Source of the DNA: Hormiphora californensis
Taxonomy: Eukaryota; Animalia; Ctenophora
Length of the DNA: 64,000 nt
Direction of reading: 5' to 3'
Assembly (NCBI GenBank): GCA_020137815.1
Contig: CM035354.1
Coordinates: 2,046,001-2,110,000 of the forward strand
Shown: piece by piece, positions 4,851-61,694 of the stretch
Position numbering within the stretch: the stretch's first letter is position 1
Layout of the letters: each line of letters opens with the position of its first letter
Translations under genes and position numbers: made by a program
Notes under the pieces: generated by a model
Database searches by the model: none
Told to the model about the DNA's origin: nothing
What the model saw: only the letters and a program-made list of their open reading frames with translations

Positions 4851-7800
4851 TCATGCTGATTTTGAAATAGAAGTTGTGGCAGTTGTCATATGCCGTAACT
4901 TCCGAGGTTGTGCTGCAGGGGTCTTGGACTGGTTATCAATGTATCTCTTTCGGAGGTAGAGTAGACCCCAGACTAACATGAGGTAGATCACTATTCCCAT
5001 CATCACCAGGAAGTACCTAGAAGGAATGAGTATGAAGGAATGAGTATGAGATTAATCATAACAAGGGGGATTCTCTAGACTTAAACTAACCTGAACACTA
5101 TTCGATCGGTGAGATTGGATGGGGTGTGTTTTCTAAACCACCGGACAGTCCTGACCACCACCTGGGTGGGGATGTGTTACTGTTAGGATATGTTGTCAGC
5201 GGCACCGCTAGTGCGCTTCTTTGTGTGGGACCATGTGGCGAGGAGCGAGTTCCTAATATAAGGATTGCTGTCACCTGGGTGGGGTGTGTAGTGTTCCAGG
5301 GGAGGTGTATCCTGCCACTAGTTCGCCCTCGTATACCAGGAGTGGGGCAGTCAGGGGCATCGTCCATCCTCCTCTTCCTTCTGTCATCTGAAGAGAGAGA
5401 GAGATAGTGGTTTTGTTAGTACTTTTGTTAGTGGTATCGGAGAGGGGCATCCTCCCCTTCCTTCTGTCATCTGGAGAGAGAGAGAGATAGTGGTTTTGTT
5501 AGTACTTTTGTTAGTGGTATCGGAGAGGGGCATCCTCCCCTTCCTTCTGTCATCTGAAGAGAGAGAGATAGTGGTTTAGTGCTTTTGTTAGTGCTTTTGT
5601 CCATCCTCCCCTTCCTTCTGACATCTGGAGAGAGAGAGATAGTGGTTTTGTTAGTACTTTTGTTAGTGCTTTTGTTAGTACTTTTGTTAGCACTTTTGTT
5701 AGTGCTTTTGTTAGTGATCGGGCTTCTCTAACAGTGCCGAGAGATCACTGATCAGAAAGGAAAATTTGAATAGAGACGAGAGGTATTCTTTTGGCAAAGT
5801 TTCAATTGAACCCGTCGAGAACAAACACGTTCTCCTTCCGTGTGACGAAGATAAACTACAGCTAGCTCTCCTACCAGGAACCGACCGAATTAAGTAAACA
5901 GCCAATCAGAACTCGTTATTTAGGTCACGTGACTGTTTATCAGCCAATCAGGGACCAGTATTTCCTGATTCGGTCGGTTCCTGTTTCCTAGTAGGAGTCC
6001 TACCTGTAGCTGCGGCTCTGTAACTATTTGATTATCCCCAGCACGAAGGATGAATTTAGCTCTGTCAGGCTTCAAATCTGAGCTCCAATCTATCCGTATT
6101 TCCTCGTCTGAATGGAAATAGAACACGTCATTCTGTGTCGACTTTGTAGAGAGGATAATAGGGCGACGCGACTGCTAATCAAATTACCATTAATTTGATG
6201 TGCAGTAAGGTACATTGGGGCAGCAGCTAGGTTGATCAAGTTAGTGGTATGGACCTCAGTGTAGTTGTGTACCGTCCCATGTACAATCTTCCCGACCTTG
6301 TACTGCATTATCGGAGATCCCTGATCCCCTGAGTCGTACCTGTTTGGGAATGTTGGCATGAGAAACGGAGCCTGATTCAGGCGACTGCTGAAATGCAATC
6401 GAAATTCGTGTCAAGCAAATCAAATTTTCCCATAACTGAGGAGGTTGGCATGTGCTACACTCCCCTCATGCACATACACCCCCCGCAGCGATCAGGAGCC
6501 TGCAGCGTATCCCAACTGAAGAGGTTTGGTTAACTAAAATACCTGATATGTATCCAGGTGTTATTGACGTCCTCTGTGTTCCTCCTTGCTGCACCAAGTT
6601 CCCAATATACCACCCTGTAGTGATGGTCCTCACTCTCCGACCAGGAGAGGGTGAGCCGGCCCCGCTCTTCTATAAAGGCCCTCAGCCCCTCAGGGGGAAC
6701 GCTCTTATCTTGCCTGGGATATGAGAAAGTGCAGTGTTACGTAATATGAAGTAGGTACATTTCACGTCCAAGTGCCCCAATCTTTCAAATACCCAAAAGG
6801 TTTAAATTTGGAATTTCACGTGAATCGTTTATACAGCAAATTATATGTAGATCTTTTTTTCACTCACTTCAAATCAACAGTAGCACTTGATGCCGGGCCG
6901 GATCCCCCTGTGGCAATAGCTCGTACAGTGACGTTGTATTGTTGACGGGGTATCAGGTCCGTAAAGAGGTAGGATCTAGCAGCATATCCCAATCGCTCTG
7001 CCCTCAATTGTAGCGCTTGGCGTTTAACCCGGTCCACTGCAGTAGTAGTTGCTATGATTTATATAATGAGGATTATTAGGATTTAGGACATTAATGATTA
7101 CTAGCTTGAATAACGAATATATCACTACTTGACTAAGGAAGTATTCAGGTACTTAGTCAGATCACGTACGCGTACGTGATCTGAGATCACGTACGCGTAC
7201 GTGACTTAATATTAATCATACTTACCATTTCCTTCCAGTTCTTCAAATGGTTCAGCCAATATTTCAAAGGCCCTTAGCAGCCCATTAACTTCCAACAACA
7301 CCGGAGGTTCCCATTCCACTAGAAACTCACTGACACTGACAATATTAACTGCCAAGTTCCGTACGGGTGCATCGGGTTTCAGGGCTCCCGTCCTTGCTAT
7401 GATGGGGTTGCTGGATGGTCCGACACTTCCCCCAACCCGGGGGGACACCTCAACAAGATACTCGGAGTAGGGTTGGACAGTTACAGTGGTGGTATAGAGA
7501 CTAGTTCCCGGTTCAGAGTCAACTCGGACCGTTCTGTTAGTGTCACCTGCAGCACCGGACATAGAGTTCACAATATAAAACTCGCACTCTGTGGATCCCC
7601 ACTGTAGGTCCAGGGTTGAGGAGGTAGAGTTGGTTAGTTGGAGGTTGCTGGGGGCTGCTATCAGGAGGTTAAATGGAGGCCATGTAAAGGTTGGTGGAGT
7701 TTCACCGTAGCTGTTGGTTGACCCCACACCAAGGCGTACCTGCACCGGGAGGAAACCATTAGTTAGACCGAAACAAGTAAACAACCAATCAGAACTCGTT

Positions 7801-58842: not shown

Positions 58843-61694
58843 TTAGTTGTTGAAGTTGAGGGCCCCAGTGTGGGTGCTATGTTGCGCCTTCCACGCGTTC
58901 ACATTGATATTAGTGACATTGGCTACAAAACTCAGGATATCCTCAATCTTGACCTCGATATACGATCTGTAACCCCAGCTGTACTGGAAACCATCTCCCT
59001 TGGTGGAGGTAACCTTCTTCCGCTCAATGTACTGCTGTTTACAGAATTCTGTAAATATCTTCTCTACGTCACCAAAGTCAACGTGACCTTCATTCCTGTT
59101 ACATAAGGGGAGAATTATTTGGGGTTTGTTGGGTTTCTCGGACCCGCCTCCCTCTTCTTTACAATATATAGAGAGGGTCAAGTAATGTTGAGGGGGTGAC
59201 GGACGGTGTCATCAGCCCTATACAGCTGATCCAGAGGGTCAAGTAAGGCAAATTTACCTGCTGATCCCCAGAATGTCCAGGGTATCCCAAAGGTCGGCCT
59301 CGTCCAGAGAATTATCGGCCATGTGGATCAGGCTTAGTACCACAGTCAACAGTCCCAGCTGGGAGATATATGGGATTAGGTTAGGTTATTAGGTGAGAGG
59401 GGGATATAGATAGGAGGAGATAGATGGGATTAGGTTAGGTAAGAGGGGAGATATATGGGATTAGGTTATTAGGTGAGAGGGGGATATAAACAGTGGGAGA
59501 GTGAGTTGTATAGTAAGAGGAGGGTGTGTGTGTTGTGGTGGAGAGCAGCATTCCATTTTTGATGAAGTCCCCCCAAGACTAGTGTAGGAGGAGGGGTAGG
59601 GAGTGAGATGGTCTAGTCAACTCACCTGGGGTAGGGAGTGAGATGGTCTAGTCAACTCACCTGGGGTAGGGAGTGAGATGGTCTAGTCAACTCACCTGGG
59701 GTAGGGAGTGAGATGGTCTAGTCAACTCACCTGGGGTAGGGAGTGAGATGGTCTAGTCAACTCACCTGGGGTAGGGAGTGAGATGGTCTAGTCAACTCAC
59801 CTGGGGTAGGGAGTGAGATGGTCTAGTCAACTCACCTGGGTAGGGAGTGAGATGGTCTAGTCAACTCACCTGGGGTAGGGAGTGAGATGGTCTAGTCAAC
59901 TCACCTGGGGTAGGGAGTGAGATGGTCTAGTCAACTCACCTGGGGTAGGGAGTGAGATGGTCTAGTCAACTCACCTGGGGTAGGGAGTGAGATGGTCTAG
60001 TCAACTCACCTGGGGTAGGGAGTGAGATGGTCTAGTCAACTCACCTGGGGTAGGGAGTGAGATGGTCTAGTCAACTCACCTGGGGTAGGGAGTGAGATGG
60101 TCTAGTCAACTGCTGCAACCCATCTGCCTTGCTATCGTTCTTCAAGATGTACATCTTGCCCCTCTTATCATCGATCTGAAACAGCCGGATGATACAGTCG
60201 GACCCCGATTTAGTGGCACCCCGATTTAGTGGCACCCCGATTTAGTGGCAGGATTTTTATCCCCCGATATACAAAAATTAACATTATTTGAACCCGATTT
60301 AGTGGCACCCCGATTTAGTGGCAAGATTTTTTCCCCCGAGGATGCCACTAAATCGGGGTCCGACTGTATAAGCAAGGAACCGACCGAATAATGAAATACT
60401 GGTCCCTGATTGGCTGATAACCAGTCACGTGACCTAAATAACAAGTTCTGATTGGTTGTTTACTTGTGTCGGGGATTGCGAAGATATTGTACAGCACTGA
60501 GCATAGTTTGCATCATTTGGAGCACACTAAGCGTGTGGGAGTATGGTACCAAGAGATCAATGGCACACGTCTAATCAGGGAGGGAACTGAGAAAGCGAAG
60601 ACAAACTAAGCGGGGAGGGGCACTGAGAAAGCGAAGACAAACTAAGCGGGGGGGGGGAGGGGCACTCAGCTGAGTACTGATCTAGATAGTTGATACCTCA
60701 CAAACAGAGAAGTCAAATGTTTCCTTGAGATGTTTCCTAGCACCCTCCAACACTGTAGGAAAGAGTCGGTGATGATCTTTCAGGACGTTCTTTGCCACAT
60801 CTGCCCTCTTTACTGGAATCTGAATGACATCAGTAAATTAAACATCGGCTTATCTACATTGTCAATAGTGAACAAGTTAGTTCTTGTTTTGGAAGGTAAT
60901 GATGAAGGATGTTGTCAGTGGTGTGGTGATTTTCACTGTCACATAGAATGCAGGCTCAAGAGAACAGGTGTACAGTAGCTACTGTACAAGTACTAGTAGT
61001 CTAACCATGTAACAGGCATGATACATGCAAACTAATTGCATGAGTTCATTGTTTGTATTTTTGTTTACTTGTTTTGGTATCAGGTATGCAACACACACAC
61101 ACATACAGACAGACACACACACACATACACTCATACAGACATACACACACACACACACATACAGACAGACAGACACACACACACATACACACATACAGAC
61201 ATACACACACACACACACAAACACACACACAGACACACACACACACACACACACACACACACACACACACACACAGACAGACACACATACAGACAGACAG
61301 ACAGACAGACAGACATACTTACATTCTTCTTGTCGGCAAACAGCAGGTACCGTGCTAAATCGATTTCCATTCTTCTTACATCCGTTGTCGACAGTTTGGA
61401 TGCAGCCTGTGTAGAGAGAGAGTGCGTGTGGGGAGAGAAAAAAACACCGGAATTACACAGTTATCATGTACCCCACTTTTACAAGTGCAACCACTACTTT
61501 GTCTCTACCCTCTCTTTCCCAAAAGAAGGGTTAGAGCAACCCACTACAAGTATCCACACACATTGTGCCAATTGCCCCGCACATACCTCGTTGGCTCTGT
61601 TCAACGCCCGTGGATCAGCCCGGGTCGAAGCAGAGGCCGATGAGGTTGAGGCGACGGCATTGTCATCTGCCCTGGCTCTCTTCTGAGCTGTCAT
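58843..61694 (-). CDS. NSMCE3: MAGE-homology-domain protein (NSE3/MAGE-G1 subunit of Smc5/6), 6 exons
   Basis: LARYLLFADKKN|IPVKRADVAKNVLK..FPTVL..A..HLKETFDF, YILKN, LGLLTVVLSLIHM..EADLWDTLDILGI, H..FGDVEKIF.EFCKQQYIE and YSWGYRSYIE. Confidence 0.88.
59593..60111. repeat. 35-bp minisatellite made of the last 31 nt of an NSE3 exon plus GTGA, about 14.8 copies
   Basis: Minus-strand unit gttgactagaccatctcactccctaccccag|gtga. Confidence 0.95.
60195..60366. mobile_element. pogo/Tc1-like MITE (TA TSD, CAGT ends) with internal ccccgatttagtggca repeats
   Basis: ta|cagtcggaccccgatttagtggca...tgccactaaatcggggtccgactg|ta. Confidence 0.85.
60375..60472. mobile_element. MITE family A copy, degenerate
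   Basis: Family core with eroded ends. Confidence 0.8.

What the first reader, a model, noticed from the sequence alone, without database searches (positions are those of the whole stretch)
5366..60111. Window-wide pattern: intronic tandem repeats are repeatedly anchored on splice junctions
Seen in at least seven introns of six genes. Acceptor plus exon: 5366-5713, 25593-25700, 26728-26885 and 52298-54700. Acceptor only: 27542-28365. Exon plus donor: 35824-35998 and 59593-60111. Inference: a process that preferentially duplicates exon-intron borders (for example R-loop or spliceosome-coupled repair or slippage), together with splicing that tolerates many decoys. I know of no named system with this signature. 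Caveat: selection against exonic repeats biases which arrays survive.
Basis: partly seen in the sequence, partly recalled or inferred. Interest (0 to 1): 0.8.

Follow-up and report, generated by a model that had tools for sequence, protein, structure and literature searches.

The report
Comb-jelly splice-junction "mirage" repeats
In six genes of a comb jelly, seven short stretches that carry a splice signal are copied head-to-tail into the neighbouring intron, a repeat type already named "mirage" in lancelets and known from a human gene, and here likely a tolerated by-product of frequent local duplication in short introns with G-rich edges rather than a new splicing-linked system.

Summary
All seven arrays exist and contain a splice site; six also carry 12-32 nt of exon. 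The organism is a Pleurobrachia-type ctenophore. In a second sample the PIS decoy junction is present in one allele and absent in another, and an RNA contig splices at the exon-adjacent acceptor. This is the named amphioxus "mirage" class (PMC3087553), also seen in the human F7 VNTR (PMC1557585), so "no named system" is wrong. Enrichment is weak: 7 of 17 intronic repeat clusters cover a splice site, against 4.2-5.4 expected once arrays are collapsed (P 0.09-0.26). An excess remains for closeness (12 of 17 within 15 nt) and for long arrays (7 of 10, P 0.008-0.04). The closeness excess disappears if G-run-rich sequence, which sits at acceptors here, is taken as the seed; the long-array excess was not retested that way. 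The RNA strand is C-rich, which argues against R-loops. The scan already noted this pattern elsewhere in this genome and in other invertebrates. My searches found no published ctenophore case. New member of a known kind; interest 0.25.

The parts
5365..5718 (-). Acceptor mirage in an Ig/FN3 receptor gene: live acceptor at 5388, decoys at 5471, 5554 and 5625; unit about 83 nt with 23-26 nt of exon and an inner 12-mer repeat; intron 5388-6003
   Evidence: FN3 hits; homologue P0171 one search does not reach this exon; frame depends on the X5 extra base at 5298
25590..25700 (-). Acceptor mirage at the last coding exon of phosphatidylinositol synthase (PIS): live 25607, decoy 25646 (39 nt upstream, in frame, no stop); a third copy has lost its AG
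26726..27031 (-). Acceptor mirage at PIS exon 2: live 26740, decoys 26829 and 26872 with 12 nt of exon, followed by G-run sub-repeats; present in one allele and absent in another in sample X5; RNA contig uses the live site
27542..28365 (-). Acceptor-only array (35-nt base unit, 24 acceptor motifs, no exon bases) ending exactly at the AG before the last coding exon of Vps55
   Evidence: edge of the array seen in X5, spliced junction seen in the more distant X14
35746..35999 (-). Donor mirage in a Cys-rich secreted or surface protein gene (no Pfam hit): live donor 35973, one decoy at 35837 (136 nt), 25 nt of exon
52297..54697 (-). Acceptor mirage in a DEAD-box helicase gene: about 64 sites, unit 40 nt (variants 30-42), 13 nt of exon; live acceptor 52311; the true donor is 54817, so the intron collapses to about 160 nt
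59592..60112 (-). Donor mirage in a MAGE/Nse3 gene: 14.9 copies of a 35-nt unit (32 nt of exon plus 3 nt of intron), 99% identical; live donor 60079 plus 13 equal-scoring decoys; each unit also reads GT...AG
5019..5050 (-). 14-mer pair ending 1 nt from an acceptor AG without including it
8085..8149 (-). 34-mer pair 10 nt from an acceptor
10624..10973 (-). 47-mer array starting 15 nt inside a donor; units lack the GT
59172..59248 (-). 61-nt-spaced repeat 8 nt inside a MAGE donor (intron 59096-59257 after correction)
59360..59490 (-). Degenerate G-rich repeat abutting the MAGE acceptor at 59359

Best explanation
These arrays are "mirage" minisatellites: local tandem duplications that include a splice site, which likely arise by ordinary duplication in short introns, are likely seeded and expanded where C-rich acceptor tracts put G-runs on the opposite strand, and are likely tolerated because splicing would keep using the copy attached to the full exon. 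Step 1 (shown): units contain the real AG or GT, six of seven with 12-32 nt of exon. Step 2 (computed): modelled introns are short (median 154-186 nt), so 31-38% of randomly placed 40-nt units would cover a splice site anyway. Step 3 (correlation shown, cause inferred): acceptors that carry arrays have the longest C-runs, and G-run sequence is known to destabilise minisatellites through recombination. Step 4 (shown for one locus): the array is present in some alleles and absent in others. Step 5 (partly shown): donors would be chosen by 5'-first scanning, as in human F7. Acceptors would be chosen by the full exon behind them, so only decoys with a short exon stub persist. Most mis-splicing would meet a stop codon.
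For: Junction content. Null: 7 of 17 cover a site, against 4.2, 5.1 or 5.4 expected with arrays collapsed, TEs removed, or microsatellites also removed (P 0.085, 0.21, 0.26), and against 5.3-6.5 from 36 array-free introns (P 0.25-0.48). Composition: the 5 acceptors with covering arrays have higher C-run scores than the other 46 (one-sided Mann-Whitney P 0.002), and 5 of 7 arrays have template-strand G4Hunter means of 0.72-1.85. In array-free introns template G-runs peak 0-20 nt inside acceptors, and 60-76% of G-rich windows lie within 15 nt of a junction; this predicts 10-13 of 17 against 12 observed. Polymorphism and spliced RNA. Decoy use gives a stop in 59 of 59, 22 of 23, 3 of 3 and 2 of 2 acceptor cases, but not in the single PIS last-exon decoy. 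Exon share is at most about a third of the unit in 5 of 5 acceptor arrays (null P 0.008-0.015). Literature: PMC3087553, PMC3902484, PMC1557585, PMC2673046.
Against: Long arrays (100 nt or more) cover a junction in 7 of 10 cases against 3.0-3.9 expected (P 0.008-0.037); this was not retested against the G-rich null. Under pure geometry, 12 of 17 within 15 nt is an excess (P 0.002-0.02; 0.025-0.10). G-rich weighting raises the chance of covering a junction only slightly (0.37-0.43 against 0.31-0.38). Two of seven arrays (5365, 35746) are not G-rich. C-runs may have lengthened after expansion, which would make the composition test partly circular. A MITE sits within 20 nt of a donor in 7 of 10 modelled cases, so intron edges do attract some DNA events here. 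Two acceptor arrays precede last coding exons, where nonsense-mediated decay would probably not remove errors. One window, 17 events, thresholds chosen after seeing the data.
Confidence: 0.6

Rival explanations
1. Exon edges are real hotspots: in a very polymorphic genome with indel-rich introns, repair or crossing-over between homologues starts in conserved exons and slips where homology breaks down at the exon edge, copying a piece of another allele's exon edge into the intron.
For: Long arrays cover junctions in 7 of 10 cases. Three of the 4 substitutions inside decoy exon stubs are synonymous (P 0.04 against random change). X5 indels concentrate in introns. A related ctenophore is about 3% heterozygous with indel-rich introns (PMC8527503 passages). 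A MITE also crowds donors (7 of 10, P about 1e-6). Unchecked scan notes raise the same idea.
Against: Only 4 substitutions; P 0.16 if the live exon also drifted at silent sites. The overall junction-covering count is not above the geometric null. The allele state of the decoy variants could not be read from the truncated tables.
Confidence: 0.22
2. One reading: R-loop or spliceosome-coupled repair duplicates exon-intron borders.
For: Edge proximity, 12 of 17 within 15 nt. The 27542 array ends exactly at the AG.
Against: RNA-strand GC skew is negative (-0.21 to -0.72) in 6 of 7 arrays and about zero in the seventh, whereas R-loops favour G-rich RNA (recalled). Breakpoints do not coincide with splice sites in 6 of 7 arrays (12-32 nt of exon is included). 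No intron-free junction copies, which a spliced-RNA template would leave, were seen.
Confidence: 0.07
3. The arrays are functional or are processed stepwise: decoys serve as alternative or recursive (ratchet) splice points. The 35-nt unit at 59593 is itself GT...AG with a consensus donor.
For: Decoys score as well as the live sites on a leave-one-out matrix. The PIS last-exon decoy is in frame without a stop. Candidate introns of 27 and 44 nt exist in the window.
Against: Presence and absence polymorphism at PIS exon 2, and the spliced contig shows only the live site. Nearly all acceptor decoys lead to stops. Amphioxus and F7 decoys are reported silent.
Confidence: 0.06
4. The arrays are long-read assembly artefacts.
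For: The assembly is noisy in places: a degraded array at 19.4-23.8 kb, a copy at 47.7-49.9 kb only 86.7% identical with 64 gap openings, and homopolymer frameshifts in exons.
Against: The PIS decoy junction and the second unit type of the Vps55 array occur in contigs of a different sample and study (X5). Units show structured variants and diverged edge copies.
Confidence: 0.05

Closest known systems
Amphioxus 'mirage' minisatellites (Adh3, globins BflGb6 and BflGb9, troponin C, PGBD5). Seen: passages of PMC3087553 (abstract, section 16, legends) and PMC3902484 (section 17). The Adh3 and TnC papers were not read.
   Same: Tandem copies spanning an exon-intron boundary at either end; units of 10-160 bp; many but not all copies keep AG or GT; copy number differs between haplotypes; splicing reported unaffected.
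   Different: Here a ctenophore, seven cases in 64 kb and up to about 64 copies. One array has the acceptor but no exon. No ctenophore case came up in my searches.
Human F7 IVS7 37-bp VNTR (PMC1557585; abstract and outline seen)
   Same: The first unit spans exon and donor; identical downstream pseudo-donors stay silent because the most upstream site is chosen. Same layout as the arrays at 59593 and 35746.
   Different: A single human locus tested by mutagenesis. It explains donors, not the five acceptor arrays; no such test exists for ctenophores.
Variable internal tandem repeats at exon-intron boundaries of human duplicated genes, and the Rogers tandem-duplication model of intron gain (PMC2812944 passages; Rogers only as cited there and in PMC3087553)
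   Same: Minisatellite units of about 30 bp at exon-intron borders that carry AG|GT proto-splice sites.
   Different: No new intron or exon made from an array was found here. The apparent donor at 54700 is an edge unit, not the real donor.
G-quadruplex-dependent minisatellite instability, CEB1 in yeast (PMC2673046; abstract and outline seen)
   Same: G-run-rich units of about 35-40 bp with complex internal variants; 5 of 7 arrays score high on one strand.
   Different: G4 folding and Pif1 dependence are untested here, and two arrays are not G-rich. This is a works-like comparison only.

Membership tests
mirage minisatellite | Tandem unit spans an exon-intron boundary | tested here: met
   6 of 7 arrays include 12-32 nt of exon. 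The 27542 array holds the AG but no exon base, so it is a boundary case and not strictly a member.
mirage minisatellite | Occurs at both 5' and 3' boundaries | tested here: met
   5 acceptors and 2 donors
mirage minisatellite | Unit length within the reported 10-160 bp | tested here: met
   Base units of 35-136 nt against PMC3087553
mirage minisatellite | Many but not all copies keep AG or GT | tested here: met
   Decoys score like live sites; the copy at 25687 has lost its AG
mirage minisatellite | Length or presence polymorphism between haplotypes | tested here: met
   One locus only: X5 has a decoy-bearing contig (depth 64) and a decoy-free joint 26759-27025 (depth 142)
mirage minisatellite | Normal splicing is unaffected | tested here: inconclusive
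   Live site used in X12 (depth 2.8, 7 differences in 199 nt) and in the more distant X14. Their alleles may lack decoys, and contigs drop rare forms. 2 of 7 junctions examined.
mirage minisatellite | Concerted evolution inside the array, with diverged edge units | tested here: inconclusive
   99% unit identity at 59593 and distinct edge units at 52311-52391 and about 54700; no tree was built
mirage minisatellite | Somatic instability (reported for Adh3) | not testable with these tools
   Needs single-animal long reads or PCR
G4-driven unstable minisatellite (CEB1 type) | Units fold into G4, and instability depends on it | not testable with these tools
   Only sequence scores were computed
Tandem-duplication intron gain (Rogers model) | The array itself forms a new intron between two copies of AG|GT | tested here: not met
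   Every array lies in an intron with unique sequence and a separate partner site

The most novel reading that the evidence does not exclude
Exon edges in this hyper-polymorphic ctenophore are true germline hotspots. Exchange between divergent alleles fails where exon homology ends and copies another allele's exon edge into the intron, and the same exposed edges attract a MITE. Mirages would then be a general, countable footprint of heterozygosity across marine invertebrates, reaching the earliest-branching animals, and a genome-wide natural experiment on splice-site choice.
Probability: 0.22. Interest if true: 0.65.

Novelty: new member of a known kind. Interest (0 to 1): 0.25.

Why it matters
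It extends a little-known repeat class from lancelets and humans to ctenophores, at high density. Stacks of up to about 60 equal-strength decoy acceptors are a ready test of how a short-intron animal picks its 3' splice site; the F7 scanning rule covers only donors. They also inflate introns (about 160 to 2,500 nt in the DEAD-box gene) and can mislead gene prediction. On this window's numbers no new DNA process is needed; that would change if enrichment survives a matched genome-wide null.

Tried and rejected
No whole genome is held, so the genome-wide test was not run. Homologue searches with the DEAD-box and MAGE exons found nothing; those junctions rest on Pfam hits and unbroken frames. The metagenome scan for the MITE gave 2 short contigs, not used further. 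Laying runs on 4860-13690 gave no RNA joints and was swamped by MITE hits. The 59.6-kb and 52.3-kb arrays were not examined in independent reads. Sister-species run X7 has no cover beyond 27561 in the Vps55 array; this is not taken as absence. Small word shares of X7-X13 are not used as evidence. Rejected: 54700 as the DEAD-box donor (the true donor is 54817); a 40-nt MAGE intron (the acceptor is 59096); an exon at 10548-10619 (homologue P0171 favours direct splicing). The naive null on uncollapsed introns (expected 3.3, P 0.026) was set aside because the arrays inflate their own introns. The Vps55 and Cys-rich translations were started in the wrong phase and redone. A paper search on introners in ctenophores returned 0 papers. 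A search on G4 near junctions was seen as a listing only.
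Full report
1. Setting. No whole genome is held, so all statistics come from the window. An exon at 27165-27410 is 100% identical over 82 aa to an EukProt Pleurobrachia bachei phosphatidylinositol synthase. The full window model differs from it at 2 of 222 residues. The DNA is therefore from a Pleurobrachia-type ctenophore. Pfam and homologue mapping identify the minus-strand genes: an Ig/FN3 receptor, PIS, Vps55, DEAD-box helicase and MAGE/Nse3. A Cys-rich gene had no Pfam hit.

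2. Observation. TRF and my own scan recover all seven arrays. I modelled 51 GT-AG introns. Left out were introns I could not fix, such as part of the receptor gene at 8.7-9.4 kb and most of the duplicated 43-50 kb region. Using the junction next to the full exon gives unbroken frames for PIS, DEAD-box and MAGE, and for Vps55 and the Cys-rich gene. The receptor exon at 5387 reads on both sides of a homopolymer at 5298, where sample X5 has an extra base; this is the weakest of the seven models. One search aligns live and decoy sites: four arrays hold acceptor plus 12-26 nt of exon, one holds the acceptor only, and two hold 25-32 nt of exon plus donor. That is 7 of 102 junctions.

3. Independent data. 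On 26600-27700, DNA run X5, from another sample and study, has a contig carrying the PIS decoy junction (depth 64) and a joint from 26759 to 27025 that lacks the decoys (depth 142). It also covers the first units of the Vps55 array, with a loose end matching that array's second unit type. RNA run X12 has one contig (depth 2.8, 7 differences in 199 nt) whose record coordinates join exon 1 to 26739 with no extra bases, and whose loose end continues into exon 3. X14, about 85% identical and so a more distant relative, has a contig that leaves the window at 27541 into sequence that I read as the upstream Vps55 exon. These support real, polymorphic arrays and use of the live site, but the RNA donors may not carry the decoys. 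The stretch 4860-13690 gave no RNA joints. The two largest arrays were not examined in other runs. The assembly is noisy in places, so their copy numbers are approximate.

4. Is it more than chance? The scan found 41 clusters; 18 touch modelled introns and 23 were left out as unmodelled. One of the 18 is internal to a MITE and was counted separately. I moved the start of the Vps55 cluster from 27555 to 27542, following TRF, because my microsatellite mask had clipped it, and I corrected one MAGE intron after the scan. Of 17 events, 7 cover a splice dinucleotide. Expected: 3.3 on raw introns (P 0.026), 4.2 with arrays collapsed to one unit (P 0.085), 5.1 with TEs removed (P 0.21) and 5.4 with microsatellites also removed (P 0.26). 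In 36 array-free introns 31-38% of 40-nt windows cover a site, giving P 0.25-0.48. Against a purely neutral reading: 12 of 17 lie within 15 nt of a site (expected 5.8-7.4, P 0.002-0.02; P 0.025-0.10 on the array-free baseline), and 7 of 10 long arrays cover a site (expected 3.0-3.9, P 0.008-0.037). These thresholds are post hoc.

5. Composition. The five acceptors with covering arrays have higher C-run scores than the other 46 (P 0.002), four of them among the top seven, and 5 of 7 arrays have template-strand G4Hunter means of 0.72-1.85. In array-free introns, template G-runs peak 0-20 nt inside acceptors, and 60-76% of G-rich windows lie within 15 nt of a junction. That predicts 10-13 of 17 against 12 seen (P 0.26-0.80) and fits the acceptor bias. 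It barely raises the chance of covering a site (0.37-0.43), and I did not rerun the long-array test under it. The RNA strand is C-rich in 6 of 7 arrays, the wrong strand for sense R-loops (recalled preference). G-run-dependent, recombination-driven minisatellite instability is shown for CEB1 in yeast (PMC2673046, abstract and outline); its role here is inferred.

6. Tolerance. Decoys score like live sites on a leave-one-out matrix, 42 of them in the DEAD-box intron and 13 in the MAGE intron, so site sequence does not pick the winner. For donors, human F7 shows that the most upstream of identical sites is chosen (PMC1557585, abstract), and the donor stubs here are long. For acceptors, the exon share is at most about a third of the unit in 5 of 5 arrays (null P 0.008-0.015). 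This would fit survival only of decoys with too little exon behind them, which is an inference. Decoy use would give a stop in 59 of 59 (DEAD-box), 22 of 23 (Vps55), 3 of 3 (receptor) and 2 of 2 (PIS exon 2) cases; the one PIS last-exon decoy is in frame and open.

7. Mechanism. The best reading (0.6) is ordinary local duplication in short introns, favoured at G-run acceptor tracts, expanded by recombination and filtered by splicing. The main rival (0.22) is an exon-edge hotspot from exchange between divergent alleles. I took this lead from unchecked scan notes and tested it on small numbers: 3 of 4 substitutions in decoy stubs are synonymous (P 0.04, or 0.16 allowing drift of the live exon). 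A MITE within 20 nt of donors in 7 of 10 cases shows that intron edges do attract some events. R-loop or spliceosome coupling (0.07), functional or recursive use (0.06) and artefact (0.05) rank lower.

8. Comparison. [quoted passage not shown] Six arrays meet the defining feature; the acceptor-only array is a boundary case. Similar repeats at human exon-intron borders are in PMC2812944 (passages). The Hormiphora genome paper reports 13% tandem repeats and about 3.2% heterozygosity with indel-rich introns; the passages I saw do not mention junction repeats (PMC8527503). Searches found no ctenophore mirage paper, within a library that lacks most subscription journals. I reached the mirage identification before consulting scan notes; those notes record the same pattern elsewhere in this genome and in brachiopod, urchin and abalone windows and are not counted as evidence.

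9. Verdict. Observation confirmed; interpretation partly supported. New member of a known kind, interest 0.25. The boldest reading not excluded, exon-edge hotspots tied to heterozygosity, has probability about 0.22 and would merit 0.65.

Noticed in passing
window 2023-2131, 5875-5983, 7766-7864, 11280-11388, 12531-12643, 29489-29597, 31607-31711, 35007-35115, 37772-37880, 39687-39795, 60375-60472: A 109-bp MITE with terminal inverted repeats; exact 8-nt target duplications at 4 of 11 copies (hAT-like, recalled). 7 of the 10 copies in modelled introns lie within 20 nt of the donor (P about 1e-6); at 11280 the duplication copies the donor itself.
   Followed up: partly
window 2017-2135: A 119-nt intron made of the MITE plus 10 nt, with the same AG|GT-containing word at both junctions: an introner-like candidate for transposon-made intron gain. 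Orthologues not checked.
   Followed up: partly
window 27407-27436: The Vps55 stop codon lies only 26 nt before the first ATG of PIS on the same strand, and an X5 DNA contig spans the gap without indels. This suggests an operon-like, trans-spliced gene pair.
   Followed up: partly
window 55278-58757: Near-perfect palindrome (arms 1,738 nt, 99.9% identical) of a truncated reverse-transcriptase ORF with a GIY-YIG-like end (Penelope-like; motif reading recalled; no Pfam hit). It may be real or a read fold-back artefact.
   Followed up: partly
window 42966-45165 and 47749-49921: Direct duplicate, 86.7% identical with 64 gap openings, likely a noisy haplotype or a mis-join; a papain-family ORF with frameshifts lies between the copies on the + strand (about 46870-47640).
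   Followed up: partly
window 43185-43657: 34-mer array of 13.7 copies, G-rich on the + strand, abutting an acceptor-like site without its AG; gene not modelled, so left out of the counts.
   Followed up: partly
window 19440-23800: Highly degraded 10-mer array (63% match) that looks like unpolished long-read consensus.
   Followed up: no
window 6516-6542 and 3930-3973: Candidate introns of only 27 and 44 nt; no RNA support.
   Followed up: no
window 34730-34929 and 39401-39600: Two tandem Cys-rich paralogues share a 200-nt exon segment; the acceptor at 39585 is followed by an 11-nt echo of itself inside the exon.
   Followed up: no
window 9509-10518, 14105-15871, 16133-17347, 33193-33497, 40820-41595, 60187-60365: Several other large fold-back elements (the last read from the sequence).
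   Followed up: no
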